DNA from: Narcine bancroftii
Lineage: Eukaryota
Direction: 5' to 3'
NCBI RefSeq assembly: GCF_036971445.1
Contig: NC_091482.1
Span: 30,814,001-30,878,000 of the forward strand
Length of the DNA stretch: 64,000 bases
How positions within the stretch are numbered: position 1 is the first letter of the stretch; the number at the start of each line of letters is the position of its first letter. The translations under genes and the position numbers were made by a program. Shown here piece by piece: positions 12,866-64,000 of this stretch. The notes beneath the pieces are model-generated. The model worked only from the letters and a program-made list of their open reading frames with translations. It had not been told where the DNA came from and searched no databases.

Positions 12866-13616
12866 ACTTGTTGGTCTTCCAGCACAGGAACATTCCAGGC
12901 TGCAGGAGTATGTGCAGAGGGACATTGTGAGGCTTGGCACAGCCAACACAAGGATTTTGTGAGGAAGGTCCACAATCCTGTCCTTCAATTACTGGGCATT
13001 GAGGGGCTGAAACTGAGGGGAATTCCCTCAAACAACAGGGGGGGGGGAAATAACTGCAAGGGGCCATAGTGGTGGCAATGTTGTAGAGATGAACGTAACA
13101 ATGATGGAAATGTATGGATATGACACCAAGGAAATGCATAGTTTCCTTTTGTAAACAATTGGCTGTGAATAAAGTTTGCTTTTTGTGATTAAAAAGGTCC
13201 GCAACAAAGCTGGAGGTGAGCCGCTGTTAATGGACAGCACCGGACCAGCAAGCATCTGGCGATGGGGAAGTGTTAATCCCACAACCACCCACCCATCCAA
13301 ACTCCCAACACCCTGCCCATCTAAACCCCTGACTGCGGTTGGGGCAATGGGAACTCAGATGGGCAGGCGGCCTGACTCACTCACCCACCCTATCTGAACA
13401 GATGACGCCTTGAAATGACACAGGTAGTTACTGAGGTCAAAAGTTTGACCTGTGTAAAAGATGACACCCGCTCCTGCCCCATTTTTGTCTGGAAAAAGTG
13501 GTTCAAAAAATTTGACGATTACATGAGTACATCAGAATCAGAATTTATGGCCATGAGCAACTCATGAAATTCAGCATCATAGTGCAAAGATTCACATTAT
13601 AACCATTTTACAAATT

Positions 13617-14094
13617 TGTCAGAAATAAAACTTCTCACACATGAGTCTCTTTAAAACTGATGACACGACAAGCTTTATTTACAAGTCTGCAGAGTTGGAC
13701 TCAACTGACTTCTCACCAGTTAAGCCCCGATACATACAGTGCATTGATTTTTATACCCTTATTGTTTGCCCTTCCCCTTCTTATTAATACTGTTTTAATT
13801 GGTTAGTATTGCAAAAGCATTCTAAGTACAACTGCATTTTTAATTATCACGTTCGTTACGTACGCTGCGAACTCTACATACACTAAATTCTGTTTCTCAC
13901 CCTTCTTATCAATCTTTTGTCTCCTGCATGTCTCTCACTATGACCATGAAAAGATATGTTTAAAAAAACATATCCAGCTGAACTTTTTGTCCTTGGCTGC
14001 TAGTAAGCTCCCTGTCCGTTCTGGCTTCCCTTTTTATGATTAATCATCACATTTTAACTTAAGCCATTTTAACCTAAATTCTCTATCTATAACA
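13617..14094 (-). repeat. ERV 3' LTR (478 bp)
   Basis: TG...CA; direct repeat of 20086-20563; minus-strand CCAAT (~13798-13802), TATAAAA (~13749-13755) and AATAAA (~13674-13679). Confidence 0.97.
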
Positions 14095-14114
14095 ATCCAC
14101 CCCTTTCTCTCTTT
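14095..14114 (-). other. Polypurine tract
   Basis: AAAGAGAGAAAGGGGTGGAT immediately before the 3' LTR on the minus strand. Confidence 0.93.
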
Positions 14115-14184
14115 AAAATGTGTGTATTATATATATATATATATATATCTGAATGGGGATTTTAACTCGGGGAAGAGAAACGTC

Positions 14185-14693
14185 TCATGATAAATTAATT
14201 TCGTGCTGAAGTAAAATTCTAACGGGGTCTCCCAGTTCCCCTGGTTGCATAGCCTGTTGGACCATGGAAATCACTAGGCTGCGTAGACAGGGAATAAAAC
14301 AGGGCAAAAGAAGCAGGAGGAATAAAATACCTCCGATGACCCACAACTTCTCATTGGAACAGTACGCTGGTGTATGCAAAACCAGAGTCCATCAGGGCAT
14401 GGTGGGCCTGAGTCACCCTACCAACTGTCAAGAGGGAAAGGAGTGGTATTAGGAATCTGTATATAATGACCCATAGTATTTCCTCCTCTTTCCACACAAG
14501 GGGTATATGGATGTTGGGTGGTATTTTCTGCCCAGCATTTCTCAGGAACTGAGGTATGGGAAATAAAATTACCCTCCTTACTTCCCCAAGTGCGGTCCTG
14601 AAACAGGACCACTGTGTCTCTGCATTTCTTACATTTCACTCCTGATAAAGACATAGGCAAACTAAGAAAAATCAAAGAACATAACAATAACAT
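14185..14693 (-). pseudogene. env: env remnant with large internal deletion
   Basis: Signal peptide MLLLCSLIFLSLPMSLSG, in-frame TAG at 14418, then a frameshifted junction to the membrane anchor and tail KLWVIGGILFLLLLLPCFIPCLRSLVISMVQQAM; most of SU and the TM ectodomain are absent. Confidence 0.85.
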
Positions 14694-14699
14694 TGTGAA

Positions 14700-14916
14700 T
14701 CAAGTCTTTCTGCGAAATCGCAAGGTAAGAGGTTTTTCTCCAGGAACACAAGTCCAATCTGAGTTCGTATCAGGGTCCTGAGGCGCCTCGACAGGTCCCT
14801 TAAATCTGGATGCGTGCGTCCACCCCTTCTCTCTTGTTCGTGCTGCAGCCTCTGTAGTTAAGAGAACTTGGTATGGACCTTCCCACTGGGGCTGGAGTTT
14901 TTCAGTTTTCCAGGTC

Positions 14917-14948
<32 letters not shown>

Positions 14949-17900
14949 ATTTTTCACACCATAAATCACAATAGCCATGATATACACTTTTTCTTTTCCA
15001 CACATTTACAGTGACTTTTTAGTTTTCCAGGTCTTGATGAGAATCCAGTCTCCTGGTTCCACTTTGTGTAAAGAAAAGTCTAGAGGCGGTGTTTGTGCCA
15101 ATAGTCCTCTCTTTCGTAAATCTGTAAGAGAGCGTGACAGTGCCTGTAAATAGTTCCTAACAAATATATCCCCTTCCCCCAAGGTGGGACACCCCTCAAC
15201 TGTACTCCAGAAGGGAAGCCCAAACATCATTTCATAAGGGGACAACCCTACATCTTTTCGTGGGGCAGTACGAATTCTCAATAAAGCCAGGGGCAGACAC
15301 TTTATCCAAGGCATTTTAGTTTCCACCATTAATTTTGTCAATTGCATTTTTAGGGTTCCATTCATACGTTCAACTCTCCCTGAGCTTTGTGGATGCCAAG
15401 GGGTATGCAATTTCCAAGAGACCTGCAATGCATTACAAATCAATTGCTGGATTTTTGAACAAAAATGTGGACCCCTGTCTGAGTCTATAGAATCCATTAT
15501 ACCATATCTGGGGATTATCTGCTCTAGGAGGAGGCGAGCTACTGTAGAGGCTGTAGCATTTACTGTTGGGAAGGCTTCCACCCATCGGGTAAAGTGACCT
15601 ATTACCACCAACAGATACTTCCATCTGGTGTCTTCCATGTTCCATCAGCCAGCTGGCTTGCGCCCAGCTGAGCCATGTCCTTTTCTTCCTTAGCAGTGAA
15701 AATGGGAGCCTTCTTTATGCCTTGTCTTATTGGGATTAAGGTCAGCAAACGGACTTCTTGTTGCATGGCTGCCCTTTTGGCTTCTTCATCAGCCAGTCTG
15801 TTTCCAATTGCTGTCGGGGTATCTCCCCTCTGATGGCCTGGTATGTAGACCACTGCTATTTCCTGGGTTAATGTCAAGGCTTCTAAAGTCAGAGTAATCA
15901 TCTGTTCGTGTGCCAATTCCTTTCCTCTTGATGTAATTAGACCACGCTCCTTCCAGATCTTACCAAAGGTATGCACTACCCCGTATGCGTATTTGGAATC
16001 AGTGTAAATCGTTCCAGTTTTCTCTGCCAGTATTCTGAGGGCTCTCTGCAAGGCATATAGTTCACAGGACTGTGCTGACCAGCTTCCGGGTAGTCTCGTG
16101 GATTCTACTACTTTCCAAGTATTTCCTTCTATTATAGCATACCCACTTCTTCTCATTCCGTCAACACATCTGGCGGAGCCGTCAATGTAGAATTCATATC
16201 CTTCTCCCAGAGGAGTATCGCAAAGGTCTTCTCGGGTCTTGGTCTGAAGATCCGTTAACTCGACACAGTCGTGCTCCACCTCTCTCTCTGTTTCACTGCC
16301 GTATAAAAACTGAGCTGGGTTGCAGCTATTAATCTTTGCAAACTGTAGATCTTCTCCGACCATTAAAATGGTTTCATACTTTAATATGCGAGAATCAGTC
16401 AGCCATCGATGGGCAGTTTGTGTTAATAAAACACTCACAGAATGGGAGGTGTACACAGTCATCTTTCCTCCAAAAGTAAGTTTACGTGCTTCCTCTACCA
16501 ACAGAGCAGCAGCCGCTACTCCCTGGATACACGTCGGCCATCCACAAGACACTGGGTCCATCATTTTGGAAAGGAAAGCCACTGGGTGTCGCTGACCGCC
16601 TTTTTCCTGTGTTAAAACTCCCACAGCTGTTCCTTGGTTATGAGTGACAAATAGCTGGAAGGGCTGTTTTAAAGAGGGCAGAGTGAGTACCGGGGCTCGT
16701 GTCAGGCGATGCTTCAAGTCCTCAATCCATCCCTCCTCCTCCTGGGTCCATTTCAATGGATATTCATTTTCATTTGTCAGCTTTTCATACATAAACTTCA
16801 CCAACGCTGAGTAGTCCTCTATCCGTAACCTAAGAGTCCCAGGAATTGTCTTATTTCCTTCTTATTACGGGGTAACGGCATTCTAGTGATTCCCGCAATC
16901 CGTTCAGGGGTAATCCGTTTCTGTCCTTTACTTATCTGGTGTCCCAGATATACCACAGTTCTCTCAACGAACTGTAACTTGTTCCTGGACACCCGTAGAC
17001 CCTTTTTCCCCAGATAATTCAAGAGTCTAATTGTATCTCCCCTCATTTCTTGTTCCTTGGGTCCTGATAATAGTAAATCGTCCACATACTGTATTAGTTG
17101 GGAATCATCAGATTGTGGATAGTCCGCCAGGATTTGTTCTAGCATTTGTCCAAACAGGTTCGGAGATTCAGTGAACCCTTGGGGCAATACAGTCCACCGA
17201 AGCTGTCTCCGTCTACCTGTCCATGGATTTTCCCATTCAAACGCGAACATATCTCTACTTTCCTCTTCTAATGAACACGTCCAGAAGGCATCCTTCAAGT
17301 CGATAACACTAAACCACTCATGGTCTGGGGGAATCCGACTCATAATAGTATAGGGATTAGGCACCACTGGGTGGCGGGTCTGAACAATAGCATTCAAACT
17401 TCTTAGATCCTGAACTAGGCGATAGGATCCATCTGACTTTTTCACTGGGAGTATAGGGGTGTTATAAGGTGACATGCATTCTTCTAATAGTCCGTCTCGT
17501 ATTAGAGTCTCAATTACCGGCTGTAGCCCTTTTCTCCCTTCCAAAGAAATAGGATACTGACGTTTCCTTACCGGCTGATGACCTGGTATTAATGTGACAT
17601 GTAAAGGTGGGATGTCCAGACCTCCTCGATTTCCCTCCTTATACCAGACTCTCTCGTCAATCTGCCGTTCATCCTCTTCCTTTAGAGCACAGAGGTGGAC
17701 TCGCACTTCTCCGTCCACAGGGAGAGCACCCAAACCTAGGAGAGCCTGTAAGTCCCTTCCTAGGAGGTTAAATCCAGCCGACGGTAACAACAAGAGGTCT
17801 TGTACCCCTTCTCTTTCTTCCAGTTTCACTGTTACTTGGGGAATTATTGATACCATTCTGGGAGCACCTTCTATCCCAGAAATTTTCAAATTACTTTTTA

Positions 17901-18054
17901 CAGGTTCAGTCCCAATTGGCACAGTTATTACACTACTTCGTTCCGCTCCTGTGTCCACCATAAACACCACCTCTTCTCCCTTGGGACCAATTTTTAGTTT
18001 TACCAGGGGTTCCCTCTTATACTTGGTCCCCAACATTTGGAACCCCTGACCCCC
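14700..18054 (-). pseudogene. pol: pro-pol (protease, RT, RNase H, integrase), disrupted
   Basis: FMVDTGAERS (PR), VIDLKDAF, VLPQGF, QYVDDLLL (RT), YIDGSAR..SAQSCEL..YTDSKY (RNase H), DSDRGPHF..SSGRVERMN (IN core), WEGPYQVLL (GPY/F). Frame breaks at ~16820 and ~15625; insertion at 14919-15020. Confidence 0.95.
14919..15020 (-). mobile_element. Short poly(A)-tailed retroposed insertion (5'-truncated L1-type) inside integrase
   Basis: Exact 15-bp TSD AGTTTTCCAGGTCTT (14904-14918 / 15021-15035); T-run of ~23 (14917-14939); minus-strand AATAAA just before the tail. Confidence 0.9.
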
Positions 18055-19545
18055 CTAATCTTCTTCCATAAGTTTGAGGGCACGCAATTCCCTCTTGTAT
18101 CGGGGGCATTCCCTCTTAAAGTGTCCTTCCTCATTGCAGTAATAGCACTTAACGAACCTCCGGGGTCTTCCCTCTCTTGGATATCTTGGATTGTTTAGAG
18201 GAAGGTTTTGTTTTCTTTCCCCTCTGGATTCGGCATTCATCTGTCGGATAGTCTGTACCATAACCTTTGTCGCCCTCTTTTGATCTTCTTCTTCTCTCTG
18301 CACATATACTTTTTGCGCCTTTTTTAACAGGTCGCTTAGGGGTTTTTCGCTCCAGTCCTCCTCCTTTTCTAGCTTCTTTCTAATGTCCTGCCATGATTTG
18401 GAAACAAATTCAATTCGAATAAGCTGTTCACCCATTGGTGTACTAGGGTCCACGCCCGCATACTGTTGGACATTCTTTCTCACCCTCTCCAAGAAATCAG
18501 TAGGGGACTCGTCTTTCCCCTGGTGGTTCCCAAATGCCTTGGTGAAATTGTGACCCTTTGGCACAGCCTCCCGTATCCCTTTAATTGTCCACTCTCTATA
18601 TTGTCTCATACTTGCCAATCCCTCGGGTGTTCGTTTGTCCCACCTGGGTTCATTTAAGGGATATTTTTGTTCATGGGGTCTGGGGTCCCCAGGTTGTTCA
18701 TATTCCCACATGAGGAGGGCAGCCCGTCGAATCATCTGCCTCTCCTGGGGTGAGAATAATGTTCCCATTATTGCCTGCATCTCTTCCCACGTATATGTGT
18801 TTGGTCCCAGGAATTGGTCGAGCTGTTTGGCCAGTCCTATAGGATCTTCCAATAACTTTTTCATTTCTTTCTTAAATCCCCGCACCTCTGTACTAGTTAG
18901 GGGAACATTCACATATCCCGTTCCCCCTCCCGGTCCTCCCATAGGAACTTCCCTCAGGGGATTTAGGCTTACTGAAAACTTTGATGGTCCTGGACCAGTC
19001 TGGGATCTTGTCCAGGGTCGGTTTACCGGTGGAAGTTTAGGGTCCGACTCCCTTAATTCATTCTTTTTTTCCCGGCCCCTTTCGGGGCAATCAGATTCAT
19101 CACCTTTCCCCTCCGGTAATGAGCTTTCCTCGGGCGCAGTAGGCACCGGGGGAATATAAGGAGGGGGAAGGTTGTCCAGAGGTTCCCACTTCTTTTCTCC
19201 CGCTACCCTCAATTTAAAACATTTTGTTAAGGATCCTGGCCAGGGAACCCAACAAAATGCATATGCTGACTCTTCTTGATTCACCTTTGGTCTCGAATTT
19301 ACATATATGTTTAATGCTTGTCTAACCCAATCCTCATCAGATCCAAATTTCGGCCACCAGACCGAGGAACCTTTAATAGGTTGTTTCGACCAAAGGAGAC
19401 AATATTGAACCATCTTTTTCTTGTTTTTGTCTCGATATCTTTTACTATCCCAATTTTCAAACATTCTCCCCAAAGGGCTGTCAAGGGGAACTCCCAGGAA
19501 TTGTCCTGAATTATCAGACGAGCCCTTAGATTTTGATCCTCCCAT
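18055..19545 (-). CDS. gag: Retroviral Gag polyprotein, intact ORF (496 aa)
   Basis: MGGSKS myristoylation motif, PPPY and PTAP late motifs, MHR QGKDESPTDFLERV, single CCHC knuckle CYYCNEEGHFKREC, ends in TAG in frame with pro-pol. Confidence 0.96.
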   Translation of the reverse strand: MGGSKSKGSSDNSGQFLGVPLDSPLGRMFENWDSKRYRDKNKKKMVQYCLLWSKQPIKGSSVWWPKFGSDEDWVRQALNIYVNSRPKVNQEESAYAFCWVPWPGSLTKCFKLRVAGEKKWEPLDNLPPPYIPPVPTAPEESSLPEGKGDESDCPERGREKKNELRESDPKLPPVNRPWTRSQTGPGPSKFSVSLNPLREVPMGGPGGGTGYVNVPLTSTEVRGFKKEMKKLLEDPIGLAKQLDQFLGPNTYTWEEMQAIMGTLFSPQERQMIRRAALLMWEYEQPGDPRPHEQKYPLNEPRWDKRTPEGLASMRQYREWTIKGIREAVPKGHNFTKAFGNHQGKDESPTDFLERVRKNVQQYAGVDPSTPMGEQLIRIEFVSKSWQDIRKKLEKEEDWSEKPLSDLLKKAQKVYVQREEEDQKRATKVMVQTIRQMNAESRGERKQNLPLNNPRYPREGRPRRFVKCYYCNEEGHFKRECPRYKRELRALKLMEED

Positions 19546-20065
19546 TTTCCCACCTAGATCCGTTTTTCGTTGCTGAGGACCCTCTCGTTCTGGACCCTAC
19601 TCCCTTCTTCTCAGACGCCTCGTCGGAGGTACTGTCCCTCCTTCGGTTACCACTGAGGTTTCCCTGGGGTCGACCCCTCTCTTCTCGGCACTTCGTCGGA
19701 GGTGCTGTCCCTCCTTCGGTTACCGCCGAGGTTTCCCTGGGGTCTATCCTAGAGTCCCACGACAGGGTCCTCACGCCACGACAAAAGCTCTATACCTGAT
19801 CTATTACGTTAGGTTTTTTTTTATCCAAACAGGTGTATCCTGTTACCCAATCCCCACACCACAATCGTAAGTCGTCACTTACCGGTGTCTTCTCGGGGAT
19901 TGAACCGTCACCCTTCTCCTCTCCGTCTTGTCGTGTCACCTTGTCCGGATACCACTCGCTCAAGCCGCCCGAAGCGACGAGCAAGGGACTAGGAGCCGCT
20001 GAACTCAGCGGGGTGCACCACCTCCGATGTCCCCCTTCTCGCCTCCCCTCACGGCTGGAGTGTAG

Positions 20066-20083
20066 ATCCCGGACGAGCCCCCA
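20066..20083 (-). other. Primer binding site, tRNA-Pro
   Basis: TGGGGGCTCGTCCGGGAT, 2 nt after the 5' LTR; matches the canonical MLV tRNA-Pro PBS. Confidence 0.96.
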
Positions 20084-20085
20084 TT

Positions 20086-20563
20086 TGTCAGAAATAAAAC
20101 TTCTCACACATGAGTCTCTTTAAAACTGATGACACGACAAGCTTTATTTACAAGTCTGCAGAGTTGGACTCAACTGACTTCTCACCAGTTAAGCCCCGAT
20201 ACATACAGTGCATTGATTTTTATACCCTTGTTGTTTGCCCTTCCCCTTCTTATTAATACTGTTTTAATTGGTTAGTATTGCAAAAGCATTCTAAGTACAA
20301 CTGCATTTTTAATTATCACGTTCGTTACGTACGCTGCGAACTCTACATACACTAAATTCTGTTTCTCACCCTTCTTATCAATCTTTTGTCTCCTGCATGT
20401 CTCTCACTATGACCATGAAAAGATATGTTTAAAAAAACATATCCAGCTGAACTTTTTGTCCTTGGCTGCTAGTAAGCTCCCTGTCCGTTCTGGCTTCCCT
20501 TTTTATGATTAATCATCACATTTTAACTTAAGCCATTTTAACCTAAATTCTCTATCTATAACA
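20086..20563 (-). repeat. ERV 5' LTR (478 bp; proviral promoter)
   Basis: Matches 13617-14094 except G20230 versus A13761 (by-eye comparison). Confidence 0.97.
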
Positions 20564-20569
20564 AAAATT

Positions 20570-21353: not shown

Positions 21354-21467
21354 ATATGGAAATTTTAAGGCGATTTTCGTAATCAGAGGCCCAAAATCCG
21401 TAAAATGGCAAGTGATATGGAAATTTTAAGGCGATTTTCGTAATTAGCGGCCCAAAATCCGTAAAAT
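21354..21467. repeat. Two 53-bp direct repeats (period 61) at the upstream edge of the CpG island
   Basis: ATATGGAAATTTTAAGGCGATTTTCGTAAT..GGCCCAAAATCCGTAAAAT at 21354-21406 and 21415-21467, 2 mismatches. Confidence 0.9.
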
Positions 21468-21469
21468 CC

Positions 21470-35783: not shown

Positions 35784-35947
35784 CTGAATTTCCTCAAATA
35801 TGGTTCCAGTCAGTGCATTGAAACCAGGGGAAAATATGTGAACAAGTGGAAACAATGCATTGTCTGAATTTCCTCAAATATGGTTCCAGTCAGTGCATTG
35901 AAACCAGGGGAAAATATGTGAACAAGTGGAAACAATGCATTGTCTGA
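35784..35947. repeat. Perfect 80-bp tandem duplication
   Basis: CTGAATTTCCTCAAATATGG...AATGCATTGT occurs at 35784 and 35864. Confidence 0.92.
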
Positions 35948-42888: not shown

Positions 42889-43731
42889 CCTGTAGTTTGG
42901 AAATGCTTGAAACTATCATTAAAGAAGAAATAATAAGGCATCTGGAGTGAGGTGGATCCATCAGGCAGACACAGCATGGATTCAGCAAAGGTAGGTCCGA
43001 TTTGACAAATTTACTGGACATCTTTGAGGATATAATGAGCGTTGTAGGTAGAGGAGTACATAGATAGATAGATAGGTAGGGAGCAGGTAAACGTTGTTTA
43101 CTTGGATTTCCAGAAGGCATTTGATAAGGTGCCTCATAAAAGACAATGCATCAGAATAGGGTGCATAGAGTTGAGGGTGATGTATTAGCATGGATAGAGG
43201 ATTGGTTAACCAATGGAAAACAGTGAGTAGGGATACAGGGGTGTTTTTCTGGTTGGCAATCAGTGAGGTACCGCAGGGGTTGGTGCTGGGCCCACAATGG
43301 CACACGATATACTTTAATGATCCGGAAGAGGGAACAGTGTAGTGTGTCTTAAGTTGACACTAAATTTAGTGAAACGAGGAATAGTTGGCACAAGACGTGC
43401 ATCACCAAGTTCAGGAACAGTTGCTACCACCCACCATCAAACTCCTCAACAACAAACTCCAATCAGTTTTTTTTTTCACTACCAGTAAGTTATAATTCTG
43501 CCTCCAGGAGTAAGAATCTCAGGGTTTTACATGATGTATGTACTCTGACAATCCAGAGAAGGAAATTATGCAGAGGGTACAGAGTCTGCAGAGAGATTTT
43601 AATGGGTTAACTGAGGTAAGGGTCTGGCAGATGGAGTACAATGTTGGTAAATGTGACGTTATCCACTCCTGCCCGAGGTCCCTGCTCCTGCTGCTGTCAC
43701 TGATCTCCAACACCTTCCCATCACCATCCCT

Positions 43732-44365
43732 GCTCCTGCCCGGCAGCCTGAGGTCCCGGCTCCTGCCCGGCAGCCTGAGGTCCCGGCTCCTGCCCGGCAG
43801 CCTGAGGTCCCGGCTCCTGCCCGGCAGCCTGAGGTCCCGGCTCCTGCCCGGCAGCCTGAGGTCCCGGCTCCTGCCCGGCAGCCTGAGGTCCCGGCTCCTG
43901 CCCGGCAGCCTGAGGTCCCGGCTCCTGCCCGGCAGCCTGAGGTCCCGGCTCCTGCCCGGCAGCCTGAGGTCCCGGCTCCTGCCCGGCAGCCTGAGGTCCC
44001 GGCTCCTGCCCGGCAGCCTGAGGTCCCGGCTCCTGCCCGGCAGCCTGAGGTCCCGGCTCCTGCCCGGCAGCCTGAGGTCCCGGCTCCTGCCCGGCAGCCT
44101 GAGGTCCCGGCTCCTGCCCGGCAGCCTGAGGTCCCGGCTCCTGCCCGGCAGCCTGAGGTCCCGGCTCCTGCCCGGCAGCCTGAGGTCCCGGCTCCTGCCC
44201 GGCAGCCTGAGGTCCCGGCTCCTGCCCGGCAGCCTGAGGTCCCGGCTCCTGCCCGGCAGCCTGAGGTCCCGGCTCCTGCCCGGCAGCCTGAGGTCCCGGC
44301 TCCTGCCCGGCAGCCTGAGGTCCCGGCTCCTGCCCGGCAGCCTGAGGTCCCGGCTCCTGCCCGGC
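43732..44365. repeat. GC-rich 27-bp minisatellite, ~23.5 copies
   Basis: Unit GCTCCTGCCCGGCAGCCTGAGGTCCCG, no variant copies seen. Confidence 0.97.
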
Positions 44366-45399
44366 GTCAATGACACTGGGACAACGGAGATCCAAGTGCA
44401 GTGGAGGGTAAAAAGGAAATAGAGAGAGAGAGAGAGGTGAAATGAGAACAATTTCCCTATATGCTTCCTCACCTGCTGATATTCTGTCCTTCAATGATGG
44501 CTCGACATTCCAGCCTATTTATCTGAGCCAGTATCCAGCCGTTTAGCAGTAAAATCACAAACCTCTGCAGACACCATGGTGGAAGTAAAAAGAAAATGCT
44601 GGAGAAACGCAGCTGGTCAGTGTCCTTTTGCTGCGATCAGAGAGTGGGGGAAGAGGGAAAACTGGAAGGGGGATTCTCAAAACAAGTAGACATTGGTTGA
44701 AGTAAAAACAAAATGCTGGAGAAGCTCAGCTGCACTTTCCAGTTTTACCCTCCACCCACTACAGCCATCCCTCCTCGCCTTGATCGCTACTGTCTCTCTC
44801 TCCCTTCTCTGCCTATCATCTCCTGCCTTTGCCCCCGTCCCCTCTTCCCCCATCCTTTTTCAGATGCCCACCAACATTTTTCCACACCTTGATGAAGGGC
44901 TCAAGCCTGAAATGTCGGTTGTGTATTTTTACCTTTGCTGCTTAAAGGACACTGTTTGACCAGCTGAGTTTCTCCTGCATTTTGTGTTTTTACTCAGTGT
45001 TTTCCTAGCTGGTTCTGAGCTCTGTTACCAAACTGGTGCTAACAGTGAGCATGTTGGGCAAATTTTTTTTTCAACTTGTGACATCATTTTGCCACCAGTT
45101 TTAAAAAAAAAAAGTTTGGATAAGAAAGCTTTTGGGTTTACTGATTTTTTTTCAGATCATTGGAAGTGTACTTTATTTTACTGCCATAGCAGAAACATTC
45201 TCAGTGTCAGGACTGACACTCCACGTTTCAGAGAAAAGAGGATGGAATGTTGAGGTTCAGGGAGAACGTCATGGTAGTACTTCGGATATATTTGGGAAAA
45301 TCATCCAGTGAGGCTGCAATAGTAACCTTAAAATCAGAAGGGGATGGTCTCTTTGTATTTTAGCACCTCTTTCTCCCTCCCCCCCAACCCCCAATGGTC

Positions 45400-47750
45400 A
45401 ACAGAAATTAGAATTAAGCAATATGTAGCGAGATCACAGCTAGCTGGAAGAATAATGGGTCATAATATTAGATGATTTCAACTTCCCTTGCATTGACTGA
45501 GCTCTCGCGGTGTAGAGGGCTTGGATGGGGTGGAATTTATTAAATCTGGATCTCTTCTTAAAAATGAGAACGAGTACGTGAAGTGTCACTCAGGAAGTAT
45601 TTTATGGCCATAAGCTTAATTTGATTTAATTACTTGTTGAGAAAGATAGGACCGGTCTGAAATTGGGGTATGGCTATTATTGGTGGCATTAGGAACTTTA
45701 CAAAGGTTTGCCACACATCTCTTTATCTGCAAACAGCATGTGGGAACTTTTAAAAGAGAGAGAGAGATCAGAGGTAGCAAGGCCAGCATGAGTAGGAACC
45801 TTGTATAACCAGAGATATTGAGGCTCTGGCTGAGAAAAAGCTGGCACATATCAGTATAGACTAGATCAAGTGAATCCATTGAGAATAGAGAATATCAGAG
45901 TGCACTTAAAAAGGAAAATCAGGAGGGCAAGAGCATGAAATGGTACTCGTGTAAATGAGAATTCAAAGAGATTCTACAAATATGTTAAAGGCCAAGTTAG
46001 AAAGACAATTGGGCCCCTTTAAAATCAGAGGTCACCTATGTGTGGGCCATAGGAGATGGATGAAGTGCTAAAGAAGTACTTCTGATTTTTGTTAGTGGAG
46101 AAGGCCAGTATATGAGAGAACGGAAGTAAATAGTAATGTCTTGAATGACAACATTATGGAAGAGAAAGTGTTGGAAGTCTTAAAAAGCATAAAGATGGAT
46201 AAATTCAGCAGGCTTGATCAGGTGTATCCTTGGGGAGCTAGGGGAGAAATTGCAGGGGACCGAGAAGAGATATTTGTATTATTGGGTGCAGATGAGCCGC
46301 TCAAAGTCCAGAGGGTGGCTAATGTTCCGCTCTTATTTAAGAAATCTTCAAGGACGAGCTAGGAAATTACTGGCCGATGAGTCTCAGGACATTCATGGGT
46401 AAGTTGCAATTCAGAGGGACAGAATCTACAAATATTTGGAAAGACTTGGACGGTTTATGAATACTCAGTATTGCTTTGTGCATTACAAAGTTGTTTGAGA
46501 TTGTTTGAAGAGGGAACCAAGAAGATTGAGGTCAAGATGGTAGATGTCCATATGAAGGCCTGGTAGCCTGATTAGAAGGTTGGATAACATGAGATTCAGG
46601 ATGAGCTGGCCAGTTGGATAACATGAGATTCAGGATGAGCTGGCCAGTTGGATAACATGAGATTCAGGATGAGCTGGCCAGTTGGATAACATGAGATTCA
46701 GGATGAGCTGGCCAGTTGGATAACATGAGATTCAGGATGAGCTGGCCAGTTGGATAACATGAGATTCAGGATGAGCTGGCCAGTTGGATAACATGAGATT
46801 CAGGATGAGCTGGCCAGTTGAATTGATGATGGTCGAAGTCAGAGGGTGGTAGTGGAGCATTGTTATTGAGATTGGAGGTCTGTAACCAGTAATGGGCTGC
46901 AGGGATTGGTAGTTGGTCTACAGTTCTTTATCATTTATATTAACAGTTTGGATGATGATGTTGTTACCATGATTAATGTATTAAAATTGGTGGCATAATA
47001 GAGAGGGAAGGTTAGCTAGGATCGCAACAGAAACGGTATGAACTGGGAAAGTGGGCTAATGAGAGGCAGGTGGAGTTTCATCTGGGTAGGTGTATGTTGT
47101 TGCATTCTGGGAGGTTAAATGTCAGAGGACTCTTGAAATCATTGATGTGTAGAGGGATCTGGTGAGGATCAGGTTCATAGATCCTTGAAAGTGGCCATGC
47201 AAGTAGGTAAGGTATTAAAGAAGGCCTATGTGTTCATTGGGTGGGACATTGAGTGTAAAAGTCAAGTTGTATCTATAACAAACTTTGGTTTGGTTGAACT
47301 TGGAGTATTCTGCATGTCCCATGACAGGGATGATGTGGAAAGTACAGAAGAAATTTGCCAGAATGTTGCTTTGTTGTATACATTTGGGCTATTTGTTGTG
47401 GAGGAGGATGGAGGCTGAGGGGAGACCTGATAAGAGTTTATAAAATTGAGAGGCATTGCTCTGTAGACACTCAATCTTTTTCCAGCATAAAATTGTCATA
47501 CACTACAGGATGTGAGTTTAGGAAGTTTGGTGGTGGAGGGTGGAGTTGAAAGGTGTGTGGGGCAAGTTTTTTTTAAACACAGAGTGATGGGTACCTGGAA
47601 TGGGCTTGCAGAGGTAATGCTGGAAGTAGATACATTAGGCTTCTGGAAAGATACATGAGCATGCAGGGAATAGAGGGATAAGTGTCTTGTGCAAGCAGCA
47701 CAATTTTAGTTTAATTTGGCATAATGTTGAGCAATTCAATATGGGCCATG
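45400..47750 (+). mobile_element. Highly degenerate CR1 LINE
   Basis: EEKVLEVLKSIKMDKFSRLDQVYP..ANVPLLFKK, RLRGDLIRVYKI and a CR1-type 3' region; boundaries approximate. Confidence 0.7.
46579..46820. repeat. 34-bp tandem repeat, ~7 copies, inside CR1
   Basis: Unit GTTGGATAACATGAGATTCAGGATGAGCTGGCCA. Confidence 0.95.
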
Positions 47751-53729: not shown

Positions 53730-55402
53730 GTGCGTAATAATGGGCATATACTTACTGATCATAACGATTTTCTGTTCAGCGTGAGTTGAATGGTTAGAGA
53801 AACATATTTAAACATCTGCAGAAGAGCCGATGAGAGATACATCAGGCAGATTGAGCCAGGTGCAAGCGCAGGGAGAATTATTTTTTTCCCTGGAATGATT
53901 TAGCATAACTCGCATATGCAGGTAACACTTGGTTGCTTGAAGTCTGTTGGGTTCAAATGAATTTGGATTGTTGTATGAATTCCCAATGGACATGAACACA
54001 AAACTGGCTCTAATTTGGCACTGTGGCAGAATTCAGTGTGCATTTGGCTATGCTGTCCCAGAACTGGTTTCAATATGTTTGGAACTGTCATTGGTTAATT
54101 GTGCCTGGGGGGAAAAATTGTATTCTCAGTTCTAAATCCATTGTTGGGATTCTCTCTCTCTTATTTGCTTGCCGTTTAATTCCAATGTCTTAATTGAGTG
54201 CCATTACAAGTTATACTTGCCAAAAAGGCATTATTTTTATGGTAGTCAACATGGTTTCCAGATTTTGAGGACTATGAAAGAAATTTACTTCAAAGTAGTT
54301 GTTTTTCTCTTACAGTTTTTCAGAAAACATTTAATTGATAGCAAATTTTAAAAATGGGATCAAGGAGAGAGGGAAAACATGTGATTAATGTTAAAATGAT
54401 TGCAGGAGCACAGAGACCTTGGTAAATCTGCCCCCAGTACTTGCAGAAAATTACATTTTGTGGAAATTATCTGAAATCTTTAGTGATCCATAATTGGAAC
54501 GTGGAATGTTATTAGCAGTACTTTTTGGGAATGATCCCCTCCCGAGGAGAGAGCGTGGACAAGATTAATGAGAATCTGAGGAAGATGAAGAAATTGCATT
54601 GTGCAGAGAGACTGGAGAAAATGGCATTGTACTTATTGGAAAGTTCAAAGGATATTTGAAACCTTCAAAACCATGAAGGGGATTTTGATGCTCATTAGGG
54701 AGTAGTAATTCTCGGTGAAAATGGTGTAGATGTAAAAAAGCTAGCTAGTGAGTTATGATCTAGCATTGGAAGATTTTGATGGGAAAATGAGCAAGTACTT
54801 AAAATTGTTGTGAACTGTCCTTTGGTATCTGAGAATGCTGAAGATATTATTTTAAAATACCACTAGTTTCTCTTGCTCTGCATTGAATTGTCGAGGGTTG
54901 AATATTGAATCCAGAGTTGAGATGAAAAAGCCATTAGAACTTTCAAATTTAATTTTTAATGGTCTCCAATCTCAAAAACCTAGCATATTTGAACTTAATT
55001 TGAGTATACTCAAAATTTGTTATTCTCACTTGCAACTATGTACCTTTGAAGCAAATCTATTTTTAACAACCAAATCTATATTTAAGAAATTAGAAATTTG
55101 GATCTTGTACAGCTAACATTGAATATATGGCAGATATGTACTAGATTGCTTCCAAGTGTCAATTTTGGGTGGAAACGTAACTTAAGAAGCACTTTAATAG
55201 AATTCTTTTATCTTGAGCTGTTTGTGAAAAATAATTGGATCAATACTTGCAAATTAGATGGAACAATGTTTTTTTTAGTCTGGGGAAGGTTCATATTGAA
55301 GATAAAAAGGATGCAAAGCATTTTTGATAGTTTGGAGTTTTGAATTCATTGATTTCTTCTGGTGTATTTTCGTAAAGTAATTAATTGTTTTCCCTTTATC
55401 AG

Positions 55403-57235
55403 ATTCTGTTAATGAAATGAATCCAAGTAATACGGTTAAAACCTCAGAAGCTTCTGCAAAAACTTTCAAGGGTGAATTATTGCTTCCATCACCTACTCCT
55501 CTTCCTCCTACAACTGCCACAACAATGGCAACTGATGTTGCAGGGTTTAAACCAGTCGATGTTGTGAAATTCTCCTGTCCCTCCATTACCCAGTCACTTG
55601 TAACACCAATCAATAAGCCTGTTCCCAAAGCAATCACCACTACTACCAACTCGTGCCAGGTCTCTGTTCTGGTTAGTGCACAAGAAAGTAAACTTAGCAA
55701 AGGGCCTGAAATTAATGTGCCTCCATGTACTGGGAATTCATCTCCAAGCACAAATTTTATCCTGTCAAGCACAGTGGCTGCAATCCCAACAGGGATTAGC
55801 ACCACGGCTCCTTCATCTGTCATCATACCTGAGTTTAAACCAGTGTTTGGTCTGCCAGTGACACAGCAGGCCATTGTCACAGCAGCAACATTGAGTTCAG
55901 GAGTACCACTCACTGCACCTATAAGCTTGGCAGCACCAATAACCTCAAGCTCTGCCACCTCAATCATGCCATTCAAACCAGTGTTTGGTAATTCTGTGAC
56001 ACTGACGACTGCCGCCACCACATCTGCACCTTTTAATTTTGGGCAGTCCGTTCAAGCAACAAAGAATAATGAAGCTCCACCTCCCACAAATTCTACCAAA
56101 TCAAATGCGACTCTCTTTCAATTTGGGGCCCCCAGTGTATTAACAAATTCAAGCATTGATTCAGAAGTGAAATGTACAAAAGCTGCAATTAGTTTTGGCT
56201 TGAATGAAAATGTTGCATCAAAACCAAATATAGCTCCTACTGCGAGCAACAACCTGGCAAGCCAGCAACAATTTCAGTTTGGTTCAAACCCAACAACCAC
56301 TACTACTACTGCTGCACCAAGCACAGTGTTCCAATTTGGAAAGAGTTCTGCAGATGTCACTGCAACAGCAGCTGGGCTGTCAGCTGCTGTCTTTGGACAG
56401 TCAAAAGTAGTTCCAAGCCAGGCATCATCAAGCATTGCAACTACTTCAAATTTATTTGGTAATTTTACCCCTTCGGTGTCGACGCCTTCAACCACTTCGA
56501 GTGCTCAGCTCACACATGCATTTGGAAACTCAGGAAAGACATCCCTGTTTGGTAATTCCACAAGCACACCACCCTTTGGGGGCTTGACAACACAGCTTAA
56601 CTTTGAAAGCACAAGCAATCAGTTATTGTTTGGAGCTAATGCTACAGCAACTCAACAAACCCCAAGTAAACCCCCTGCCTTTGGCAACATTGTTACTCCC
56701 TTCAACTTTGGAGCTACACCCACCAAACCAACTTTTCAGAGTACTACTTCACAGTCTGCATTTGGAACTCCGAGCCAGCCCGTGTTTGGAAGTGCTACAG
56801 CTCAGACTGGATTTGGGTCCACTTCTACACAACCAACTTTTGGTGGCACCTCAGTGGGTTTCTCATTCGGTACAACAACCTCTTCTACTGCTGCTCCAAT
56901 GTTCAGCACTACCAAGAGTTCAGGTAGTGGTACAACTGGTTCAATCTTTGGCTCTGCACAAGGTGTTGCTTTTGGTTCCTCAAACCAGCCAGTCATAACA
57001 ACCAATGTAGTTGCCTCAAATGCAAACATAGCTACAGCTGGCTTCTTTGGTTCAAGTCAGAGTGGATTTTGTGCTTCAAACCCTTCCGTCCCATTTGCAA
57101 CTTCCACACCAACATCATCATCATCTCAAAATCTGTTTGGGCCTTCATTGACTAACCAAGGGACACAGAACCAGAGTACTCCTCAGTTCAACTTTGGAGC
57201 TGTAAACACAGTTGAGAATAAATCTGCTTTTGGAG
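55403..57235 (+). CDS. POM121: POM121 exon 11 (large Ser/Thr-rich FG-repeat exon, 1,833 nt)
   Basis: ATCAG| ... G|GTGAGT; about 26 FG dipeptides including FKPVFG, FNFG and FQFG. Confidence 0.96.
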
Positions 57236-57304
57236 GTGAGTGATCCTTTACTTGTATCTTTCCAACATGTTAAAAGTCGGTGAATTTTTCTACACAAAAG
57301 CAAT

Positions 57305-62104: not shown

Positions 62105-64000
62105 TCTTTTTTTCTTTGGCTTGGCTTCGCAGACGAAGATTTATGGAGGGGTAAATGTCCACATCAGCTGCAGGCTCGTTTGTGGCTGACAAGTCCAATG
62201 CGGGACAGGCAGACACGGTTGCAGCGGTTGCAGGGGAAAATTGGTTGGTTGGGGTTGGGTTTTTCCTCCTTTGTCTTTTGTCAGTGAGGTGGGCTCTGCG
62301 GTCTTCTTCAAAGGAGGTTGCTGCCCACCGAACTGTGAGGCGCCAAGATGCACGGTTTGAGGCGATATCAGCTCACTGGCGGTGGTCAATGTGGCAGGCA
62401 CCAAGAGCTTTCTTTAGGCAGTCCTTGTACCTCTTCTTTGGTGCACCTCTGTCACAGTGGCCAGTGGAGAGCTCGCCATATAACACTATCTTGGGAAGGC
62501 GATGGTTCTCCATTCGGGAGACGTGACCTACCCAGCGCAGTTGGATCTTCAGCAGCTTGGATTTGATGCTGTCGGCCTCTGCCATCTCGAGTACTTCGAT
62601 GTTAGGGATGAAGTCGCTCCAATGAATGTTGAGGATGGAGCGGAGACTACGCTGGTGGAAGCGTTCTAGGAGCCGTAGGTGATGCTGGTAGAGGACCCAT
62701 GTTTCGGAGCCGAACAGGAGTGTGGGTATGACAATGGCTCTGTATATGCTAATCTTTGTGAGGTTTTTCAGTTGGTTGTTTTTCCAGACTCTTTTGTGTA
62801 GTCTTCCAAAGGCGCTATTTGCCTTGGTGAGTCTGTTGTCTATCTCGTTGTCGATCCTTGCATCCGATAAAATGGTGCAGCTGAGTTAGGTAAACTGGTT
62901 GACCGTTTTGAATTTTGTGTGCCCGATTGGGATGTGGGGGGGCTGGAAGTCATGGTGGGGAGCTGGTTGATGGAGGACCTCAGTTTTCTTCAGGCTGACT
63001 TCCAGGCCAAACATTTTGGCAGTTTCCGCAAAACAGGACGTCAAGCGCTGAAGAGCTGGCTCTGAATGGGCAACTAAAGCGGCATCGTCTGCGAAGAGTA
63101 GTTCACGGACAAGTTGCTCTTGTGTCTTGGTGTGAGCTTGCAGGCGCCTCAAATTGAAGAGACTGCCATCTGTGCGGTACCGGATGTAAACAGCGTCTTC
63201 ATTGTTGAGGTCTTTCATGGCTTAATTCAGCATCATGCTGAAGAAGATTGAAAAGAGGGTTGGTGCGAGAACGCAGCCTTGCTTCACGCCATTGTTAATG
63301 GAGAAGGGTTCAGAGAGCTCATTGCTGTATCTGACCCGACCTTGTTGGTTTTCGTGCAGTTGGATAACCATGTTGAGGAACTTTGGGGGGCATCCGAGAC
63401 GCTCTAGTATTTGCCAAAGCCCTTTCCTGCTCACGGTGTTGAAGGCTTTGGTGAGGTCAACAAAGGTGATGTAGAGTCCTTTGTTTTGTTCTCTGTACTT
63501 TTCTTGGAGCTGTCTGAGGGCAAAGACCATGTCACTAGTTCCTCTGTTTGTGCGAAAGCCGCACTGTGATTCTGGGAGAACATTTTCGGCGACACTAGGT
63601 ATTATTCTATTTAGGAGAATCCTAGCGAAGATTTTGCCTGCAATGGAGAGCAGCGTGATTCCCCTGAAGTTTGAGCAGTCTGATTTCTTGCCTTTGTTTT
63701 TGTACAGGGTGATGATGATGGCATCACGAAGGTCGTGAGGCAGCTTTCCTTGGTCCCAGCATGAAAAACTCATGCAGTTTGGCATGCAGAGTTTTGCCGC
63801 CAGCCTTCCAGACCTCTGGGGGAGATTCCATCCATTCCTGCTGCTTTGCCACTTTTCAGTTGTTCAATTGCCTTATATGTCTCTTCCCGGGTGAGGACCT
63901 CATCCAGCTCTAGCCTTAGGGGCTGTTGAGGGAGCTGGAGCAGGGCGGATTCTTGGACTGAGCGGTTGGCACTGAAAAGAGATTGGAAGTGTTCTGACCA
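62105..64000 (-). mobile_element. RTE-clade LINE (runs off window end)
   Basis: NFRGITLLSIAGKIFARILLNR, ESQCGFR, FVDLTKAF, GVKQGCVLAPTLF, LFADD; few stops. Confidence 0.92.

What the first reader, a model, noticed from the sequence alone, without database searches (positions are those of the whole stretch)
13617..20563. Very young gamma-like provirus whose genes are much more damaged than its LTRs: probable trans-mobilised defective genome with an active helper
Seen: the two 478-bp LTRs differ at one position by eye (A13761/G20230), and PBS, PPT, leader and gag are intact. Yet pol and env carry at least five separate lesions: a small RT deletion, loss of the IN N-terminus, a retroposed insertion, an env nonsense codon and a large env deletion. 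Established: LTRs are identical at integration, and a provirus needs functional RT and IN to integrate. Inference: most lesions predate this integration, so the genome was copied as a defective RNA by a helper. That would mean a recently or currently active retrovirus in this (probably cartilaginous fish) host. From memory, the Gag segment WPKFGSDEDWVRQALNIYVN resembles HERV-I/IP-like and avian gamma-like ERVs; this needs a phylogeny.
Basis: partly seen in the sequence, partly recalled or inferred. Interest (0 to 1): 0.85.

Follow-up and report, generated by a model that had tools for sequence, protein, structure and literature searches.

The report
Broken young retrovirus in electric ray
This is a damaged copy of a recently spreading, mouse-leukaemia-like retrovirus family in the genome of an electric ray; the family, which is also in other rays and a shark, is more interesting than this one copy, whose proposed rescue by a helper virus is plausible but unproven.

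Summary
A minus-strand gamma-like provirus has 478-bp LTRs differing at 1 site, an open gag, and five lesions: a 10-nt RT loss, a ~280-nt IN loss, a 117-bp retroposed insertion, an env stop and a ~1.2-kb env loss. The target-site duplication is imperfect.

The host is Narcine bancroftii or a close relative (Gag 98-99% identical). A 37-member Env cluster exists; 12 of the 15 members seen are near full length, so the family expanded recently. Gag decay (2/451 private residues) matches the LTR clock, which argues against LTR-only homogenisation.

The helper claim is unproven. No sibling seen shares a lesion, no intact Pol was found, and deletions made during the last reverse transcription need no helper. 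'Very young' is about 5 My (0.1-26) at an assumed shark rate.

Relatives in three other elasmobranchs form one clade among bird and reptile ERVs, and their tree contradicts the host tree. Two RefSeq models resemble the MLV P50 splice product. Defective copies spread in trans are a known mechanism; the family was not found in the papers searched.

The parts
20086..20563 (-). 5' LTR, 478 bp
20066..20083 (-). primer-binding site, 2 nt inside the LTR end (tRNA-Pro type, recalled)
19546..20065 (-). leader with a splice-donor-like site at 19883 and a 73-bp-period direct repeat (19602-19744, about 89-91% alike)
18055..19545 (-). gag, open, 496 aa; Gag_p30, PPPY, one CCHC finger; TAG in frame with pro-pol
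18605..18612 (-). alternative splice-donor-like site in capsid, at the junction of RefSeq models XP_069753372 and XP_069741957
16837..18054 (-). protease and RT polymerase domain, open; DTGA, LPQG and YVDD motifs present
16820..16836 (-). lesion 1: net 10-nt loss, frameshift in RT
15627..16819 (-). RT connection and RNase H, open, catalytic motifs present
15618..15626 (-). lesion 2: junction of a ~280-nt loss of the IN N-terminus, frameshift; lies on a 7-9 nt stretch that reads as both flanks (microhomology, inferred from sibling peptides)
15021..15620 (-). IN core remnant; splice-acceptor-like site at 15122-15123
14904..15035 (-). lesion 3: retroposed insert 14919-15020 (80 nt plus about 22 A, AATAAA, same sense as the provirus) between perfect 15-bp duplications; carries a stop in the IN frame; source not identified
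14700..14903 (-). IN C-terminal domain with GPY/F motif and a tail that aligns to the MLV IN tail
14185..14693 (-). env remnant: codons 1-116 with a stop at codon 92 (lesion 4, 14418-14420), junction of a ~1195-nt loss at about 14346 (lesion 5, frameshift), then the last 52 codons
14097..14114 (-). polypurine tract
13617..14094 (-). 3' LTR, 478 bp
13611..13616 (.). left target-site copy (imperfect match to 20564-20569)
20564..20569 (.). right target-site copy; either 6 bp with one mismatch or 5 bp plus one extra A
21400..22400 (+). context: CpG island and probable first coding exon (ATG at 21715) of host POM121, 1.15 kb from the 5' LTR, facing away from the provirus
   Evidence: the exon's link to POM121 is inferred

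Best explanation
This is one copy of a gamma-like retrovirus family that expanded recently, on the host's mutation clock, in the electric ray germ line. Its genes were under purifying selection until shortly before this copy was made. Most of its deletions then arose during reverse transcription by template switching, and at least one pol-inactivating lesion was already in the parent RNA, so RT, IN and Env came in trans from another member of the family. The poly(A) insert more likely landed afterwards, at this locus. Shown: anatomy, lesions, low point decay, many full-length sibling Env proteins. Inferred: the order of lesions, their origin in reverse transcription, and the helper.
For: Four structural lesions accompany very little point decay: LTR 1/478, Gag 2/451 and RT-connection/RNase H 3/236 private residues, none different from the LTR clock (p = 0.52 and 0.13). 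If structural events are 1-5% as common as substitutions (an assumed range), three in pol after integration has probability 0.00008-0.007. All cis elements needed for copying are kept. The IN junction lies on a microhomology. Potential Env donors exist: 12 of 15 listed members carry every Env motif tested. Precedent: degenerate HERV-H with low LTR divergence (PMC4724089 section 38) and canine ERV-Fc (PMC6407205 passages).
Against: The defining sign, a lesion shared by separate loci, was not seen: 0 of 2 (IN loss), 0 of 2 (insert), 0 of 15 (env loss), none testable for the RT break. No intact Pol of this host appeared among the best 120 of 353 long hits or the best 150 representatives. Siblings carry many private deletions and frameshifts; if the lesion-to-substitution ratio is 0.1-0.2, three pol lesions have probability 0.04-0.15 without a helper. 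The insert is in sense with AATAAA, which should hinder full-length transcription of a parent that carried it (inference).
Confidence: 0.5

Rival explanations
1. No helper was needed. An intact parent made the virion; one deletion arose in the final reverse transcription and the other lesions after integration, over a span that may be millions of years, with survival favouring broken copies.
For: One LTR mismatch gives 4.75 My (0.12-26.5) at 2.2e-10 per site per year (rate assumed in PMC4422223). No shared lesion was found. A poly(A) insert with a target duplication can only arise in chromosomal DNA. Private deletions are common in siblings.
Against: Four structural events against roughly a dozen expected substitutions needs a ratio of 0.1 or more, far above the ratio I recall for vertebrate germ lines.
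Confidence: 0.33
2. The lineage lost env long ago and copied itself inside cells with its own Gag and Pol; pol broke only at the end.
For: The env remnant has 8 private residues in 115 against 2 in 451 for Gag (Fisher p = 7e-5) and differs from all 13 siblings by 10-12 residues where they differ from each other by 0-6. Precedent in cat and bat ERVs (PMC4643047 passages).
Against: The 8 changes fall in three tight patches (p about 0.001), mostly avoid structural residues (1 of 8, p = 0.04) and keep all 7 cysteines and both glycosylation sites. That looks like a functional Env variant, not neutral decay. Only 15 of 37 Env members were seen.
Confidence: 0.08
3. The provirus is old and its LTRs were made alike by gene conversion or by the assembler.
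For: In humans 9 of 19 loci with 0-1% LTR divergence were also in chimpanzee (PMC4724089 section 38). The window has a 615-N gap and perfect local duplications, so assembly quality is not assured.
Against: Gag and pol are as little decayed as the LTRs, which LTR-only homogenisation would not produce. The insert's 15-bp duplication is perfect.
Confidence: 0.06
4. The locus is a chimera made by recombination in the chromosome between two proviruses.
For: Imperfect target-site duplication and an outlying env segment.
Against: The flanks match at 5 of 6 bases (chance 0.006) and the LTRs are almost identical.
Confidence: 0.03

Closest known systems
Avian and squamate gamma-like class I ERVs (the group reported as HERV-I-like, ChiRV1, Avigamma1)
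   Same: Best non-elasmobranch hits: Gag 41-48%, named RT hits up to 67% identical. The elasmobranch clade sits among them. PMC1224870 and PMC4724089 (passages) link such bird elements to HERV-I and HERV-IP.
   Different: Host is a ray. The hits carry no family names, so their link to the named groups is inferred.
ERV3-1 (HERV-R)-like Env
   Same: RefSeq names the sibling Env proteins 'endogenous retrovirus group 3 member 1 Env polyprotein-like'; CXXC, furin site, ISD and CX7CC are present.
   Different: An automatic name only; no direct alignment to ERV3-1 was made.
Lemon shark ERV
   Same: A single shark ERV sequence close to a human ERV and thought to come from cross-species transmission (PMC4422223 passage).
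   Different: Here there is a full provirus and a multi-copy family.
Murine leukaemia virus
   Same: Best solved RT match (244 bits against 102 for foamy and 90 for the next class); TAG readthrough; one zinc finger; IN C-terminal domain and tail align; a P50-like Gag-IN junction.
   Different: RT is far less similar to MLV than to bird and reptile ERVs; Env is of another type.
Defective ERVs spread in trans (HERV-H with 'midwife' elements, canine CfERV-Fc1(a), recKoRV)
   Same: Near-identical LTRs around broken genes, with cis elements kept (recKoRV seen as a search listing only).
   Different: The canine case rests on lesions shared across loci (12 of 19 proviruses); none has been shown here.

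Membership tests
Class I gamma-like ERV | RT closest to gammaretroviruses among reference retroviruses | tested here: met
   XMRV/MLV RT 244 bits, foamy 102, others 90 or less; no epsilon RT appeared among the 60 hits shown
Class I gamma-like ERV | gag and pro-pol in one frame, separated by a stop (readthrough) | tested here: met
   TAG at 18055-18057, frame continues
Class I gamma-like ERV | one nucleocapsid zinc finger (epsilon has two, PMC1224870) | tested here: met
   1 CCHC
Class I gamma-like ERV | GPY/F motif in the IN C-terminal domain; no dUTPase | tested here: met
   motif in the 14700-14903 frame, MLVIN_C hit below the curated cut-off, PDB 2m9u E 3.5e-7; no dUTPase hit
Class I gamma-like ERV | gamma-type Env (CXXC, ISD, CXnCC) | tested here: met
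   met in 12 of 15 sibling Env proteins; lost from this copy
Class I gamma-like ERV | RT tree with gamma and epsilon reference viruses | not testable with these tools
   no named MLV, epsilon or HERV protein was among the stored proteins; the tree holds hits only and is midpoint-rooted
HERV-I / HERV-IP group | Pol clusters with HERV-I or HERV-IP | not testable with these tools
   no reference sequence available; support is indirect (bird relatives, Env name)
Defective ERV spread by complementation in trans | inactivating lesion shared by separate loci | tested here: inconclusive
   protein level only: 0 of 2, 0 of 2, 0 of 15, RT break untestable; host DNA not searchable
Defective ERV spread by complementation in trans | intact cis elements (LTRs, PBS, PPT, leader) | tested here: met
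Defective ERV spread by complementation in trans | a contemporary helper with intact gag, pol and env | tested here: inconclusive
   full-length Env yes; intact Pol not found, but both searches show cluster representatives only
Invading ERV (ERVi of PMC10435555) | identical LTRs | tested here: not met
   1 mismatch; applies to this copy only
Invading ERV (ERVi of PMC10435555) | [quoted passage not shown] | tested here: not met
   five lesions; other copies untested
Invading ERV (ERVi of PMC10435555) | insertional polymorphism | not testable with these tools
   no population data

The most novel reading that the evidence does not exclude
A gamma-like retrovirus that entered sharks and rays from an amniote-associated lineage has moved between elasmobranch species by infection, is still invading the electric ray germ line with intact and polymorphic copies, mobilises defective genomes such as this one, and makes an MLV-P50-like spliced Gag-IN product.
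Probability: 0.25. Interest if true: 0.85.

Novelty: new member of a known kind. Interest (0 to 1): 0.5.

Why it matters
A 2018 survey said the gamma-containing clade 'exclusively infects amniotes' (PMC6001957 passage), with one lemon shark fragment as the known exception. A 2023 screen found invading ERVs in 0 of 13 cartilaginous fishes (PMC10435555 supplement). A multi-copy family with full-length Env in a ray, and relatives in two stingrays and a bamboo shark, makes both points directly testable with public genomes. The helper mechanism, even if true, would be a further case of something known from humans, dogs and koalas.

Tried and rejected
1. Reading the env excess as long neutral decay: weakened, which shows clustered, scaffold-sparing changes. 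2. Reading the shared Gag-IN junction of XP_069753372 and XP_069741957 as a shared genomic deletion: it falls on GT and pyrimidine-CAG sites present in the window, so splicing explains it; an integrated spliced copy is not excluded. 3. Rows dropped: IN core 2/36 (both at that splice junction, artefacts), IN C-terminus 3/53 (only the other sub-lineage to compare), protease-RT (no position with two siblings). 4. Conserved-column test: deviations were Gag 2/135, protease-RT 3/132, RT-RNase H 6/126, IN core 3/80, IN tail 0/20, inside the range of relatives (0-18); by eye 5 of the 6 and 2 of the 3 are shared with siblings. 5. Source of the insert: no copy elsewhere in the window, no Rfam hit. 6. 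Exact look-up of six window proteins: 0 of 6 in the collection. 7. Atlas and PDB searches on the neighbouring gene gave no hit or a weak lead; Pfam settled it (4 of 122 frames sent, out of 157 listed). 8. A clock-free placement test was uninformative (p = 0.61). 9. An earlier count said 11 of 15 full-length Env; the correct count is 12 of 15. Unchecked: the host assembly and reads (no tool), viral and metagenome contig collections (closed), 22 of 37 Env members.
Full report
Observation. The window holds a provirus on the minus strand at 13617-20563. Its LTRs are 478 bp and differ at one position, 13761/20230. A primer-binding site (tRNA-Pro type, recalled) starts 2 nt inside the 5' LTR and a polypurine tract precedes the 3' LTR. 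Gag is an open 496-aa frame with Gag_p30 and one zinc finger, ending in TAG in frame with pro-pol. Alignment to full-length relatives confirms all five lesions: a net 10-nt loss in RT, about 280 nt lost from the IN N-terminus, a 102-bp poly(A)-tailed insert with a perfect 15-bp duplication, a stop at env codon 92, and about 1195 nt lost from env. The three deletions each shift the frame. The target-site duplication matches at 5 of 6 bases (chance 0.006), so it is probably real but imperfect.

Host and family. Gag is 98-99% identical to RefSeq models of Narcine bancroftii on other chromosomes or loci. None of six window proteins is itself in the collection, so the window may be an unannotated locus, another haplotype or a close species. 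The env remnant finds one cluster of 37 proteins. Fifteen were listed, all N. bancroftii, on 11 different contig lengths. Twelve of the 15 are 560-567 aa and carry signal peptide, CXXC, furin site, ISD, CX7CC and membrane anchor. They fall into two sub-lineages about 91% alike, with 97.5-99.8% identity inside the larger one. Many intact Env proteins point to recent spread by reinfection (inference). An intact Pol of this host was not seen among the best 120 of 353 long hits or the best 150 representatives. The two closest Pol models, P0274 (96%) and P0279 (93%), keep the HHCC region but are broken elsewhere. Both searches show representatives only, so this absence is weak.

How young. One mismatch gives 4.75 My (95% 0.12-26.5) at the 2.2e-10 per site per year assumed for sharks in PMC4422223 (passage), or about 1 My at 1e-9. 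The measured epaulette shark rate is 7e-10 per generation (PMC10587355 passages). A second clock agrees: residues private to this copy number 2 of 451 in Gag and 3 of 236 in RT connection and RNase H, neither different from the LTR rate (p = 0.52 and 0.13). This argues against LTR-only conversion, a real hazard in humans, where 9 of 19 low-divergence loci were shared with chimpanzee (PMC4724089 section 38, read whole). The copy is young in mutational terms; 'currently active' is untested.

The env remnant. It has 8 private residues in 115, far more than Gag (p = 7e-5; 10-12 differences from each of 13 siblings, which differ from each other by 0-6). I first read this as long decay after env loss. 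The changes, however, form three tight patches (p about 0.001), hit 1 structural residue of 8 (p = 0.04) and keep all cysteines and glycosylation sites. A functional Env variant not among the 15 members seen fits better.

Mechanism. About 6 substitutions (1.5-14) are expected in pol since purifying selection ended, yet pol has three structural lesions. With an assumed ratio of structural events to substitutions of 0.01-0.05 the chance is 0.00008-0.007; at 0.1-0.2 it is 0.04-0.15. The ratio for this host is unknown, and siblings show many private deletions. Reverse transcription makes deletions readily (recalled), and the IN junction lies on a 7-9 nt microhomology. Extra copying rounds without selection on pol therefore explain the pattern somewhat better than host mutation alone. 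Against this, a deletion made in the last round needs no helper, the sense-oriented poly(A) insert more likely came after integration, and no sibling seen shares a lesion (0 of 2, 0 of 2, 0 of 15; RT break untestable). I put the helper model at 0.5 and the no-helper model at 0.33.

Classification. The RT's best solved relatives are XMRV and MLV, and the markers of PMC1224870 (passages) are gamma-type. In a capsid tree of 37 rows, Narcine, Hypanus, Hemitrygon and Chiloscyllium sequences with one unnamed row form a clade (99/100) among bird and snake ERVs; two more distant Narcine and Chiloscyllium rows fall outside it. The RT tree of 40 rows joins the window with Hypanus (100/99). Neither tree has an outgroup or named reference viruses, so HERV-I/IP membership and the direction of transfer are untested. 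In a 13-row Gag tree the window groups with Hypanus, and Hemitrygon with Chiloscyllium. Holding the two stingrays together is rejected (AU p = 0.0008), and holding all rays together less strongly (p = 0.025). I chose these host-taxonomy groups. The pairs match ocean basins, western Atlantic and Indo-West Pacific (recalled). Host switching is the simplest reading; unsampled paralogous lineages are the alternative.

A P50-like product. Two RefSeq models on different chromosomes join Gag residue 311 (about 116 residues into capsid) to the last 101-102 residues encoded from the IN region. The junction falls on GT and pyrimidine-CAG sites that the window also has. MLV P50 joins the first 110 capsid residues to the last 116 of IN, and its RNA is itself packaged and integrated (PMC10496198 passages). 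Whether the two models are spliced transcripts or integrated spliced copies is unknown.

Context. The 5' LTR lies 1.15 kb from the probable start codon of POM121, beside a CpG island. The IN tail aligns to the MLV tail, which steers MLV to promoters through BET proteins (recalled). This fits integration by a working gamma-type integrase, but it is one site.

Novelty. Spread of defective ERVs in trans is known (PMC4724089; PMC6407205 passages; modes listed in PMC10435555 passages). For the family, searches for Narcine with retrovirus and for cartilaginous fish with HERV-I returned 0 papers; two broader searches listed 18 and 7 papers, none on it by title or abstract start. The library lacks most subscription journals. 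PMC6001957 (passages) confines the gamma clade to amniotes; PMC4977317 (passages) lists only snakehead-like and epsilon-like lineages for elephant shark; PMC4422223 mentions one lemon shark sequence close to a human ERV; PMC10435555 (section 6 and supplement rows) found invading ERVs in 0 of 13 cartilaginous fishes, and Narcine was not found in the supplement files searched. Verdict: new member of a known kind, interest 0.5, carried by the family more than by this copy.

Noticed in passing
window 18612 and 15121; RefSeq XP_069753372, XP_069741957: Capsid-to-IN junction on canonical splice sites, with proportions like the MLV SD'/P50 product; both sites are kept in this copy.
   Followed up: partly
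P0015/P0133 and P0082/P0138 (Hypanus sabinus models): Two pairs of models on different chromosomes share exact gag-to-pol junctions. These may be deleted genomes amplified in trans in the sister family, or predicted splices.
   Followed up: partly
P0004 cluster (Chiloscyllium punctatum): Six of 9 members are 508-aa full-length Gag proteins, which hints at a recent expansion in the bamboo shark too; some may be isoforms of one locus.
   Followed up: no
Gag trees: Virus grouping follows ocean basin rather than host family.
   Followed up: partly
P0078 (Narcine) and P0037 (Chiloscyllium): Further, more distant gamma-like Gag lineages in the same hosts, outside the main elasmobranch clade.
   Followed up: no
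window 21400-57243: Host POM121 gene on the + strand: CpG island, Pfam POM121 exons at 34264, 36023, 48097 and 50250, and a long FG-rich frame at 55381-57243.
   Followed up: yes
window 14919-15020: The insert looks like the 3' end of an L1-type or other poly(A) retroposon; no source found in the window.
   Followed up: partly
window 25487-26615 and 62108-63863: Two LINE copies about 95% alike in opposite orientation with RT frames; RTE type recalled.
   Followed up: no
window 27454-28068, 35784-35943, 43592-44512, 46545-46857: A 615-N gap, a perfect 80-bp duplication, and near-perfect 27-bp and 34-bp tandem arrays; some may be assembly artefacts.
   Followed up: no
window 14349-14693: Three patches of private residues in the Env N-terminus, next to sites that vary among siblings; possibly receptor- or antibody-facing loops of an unsampled Env variant.
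   Followed up: partly
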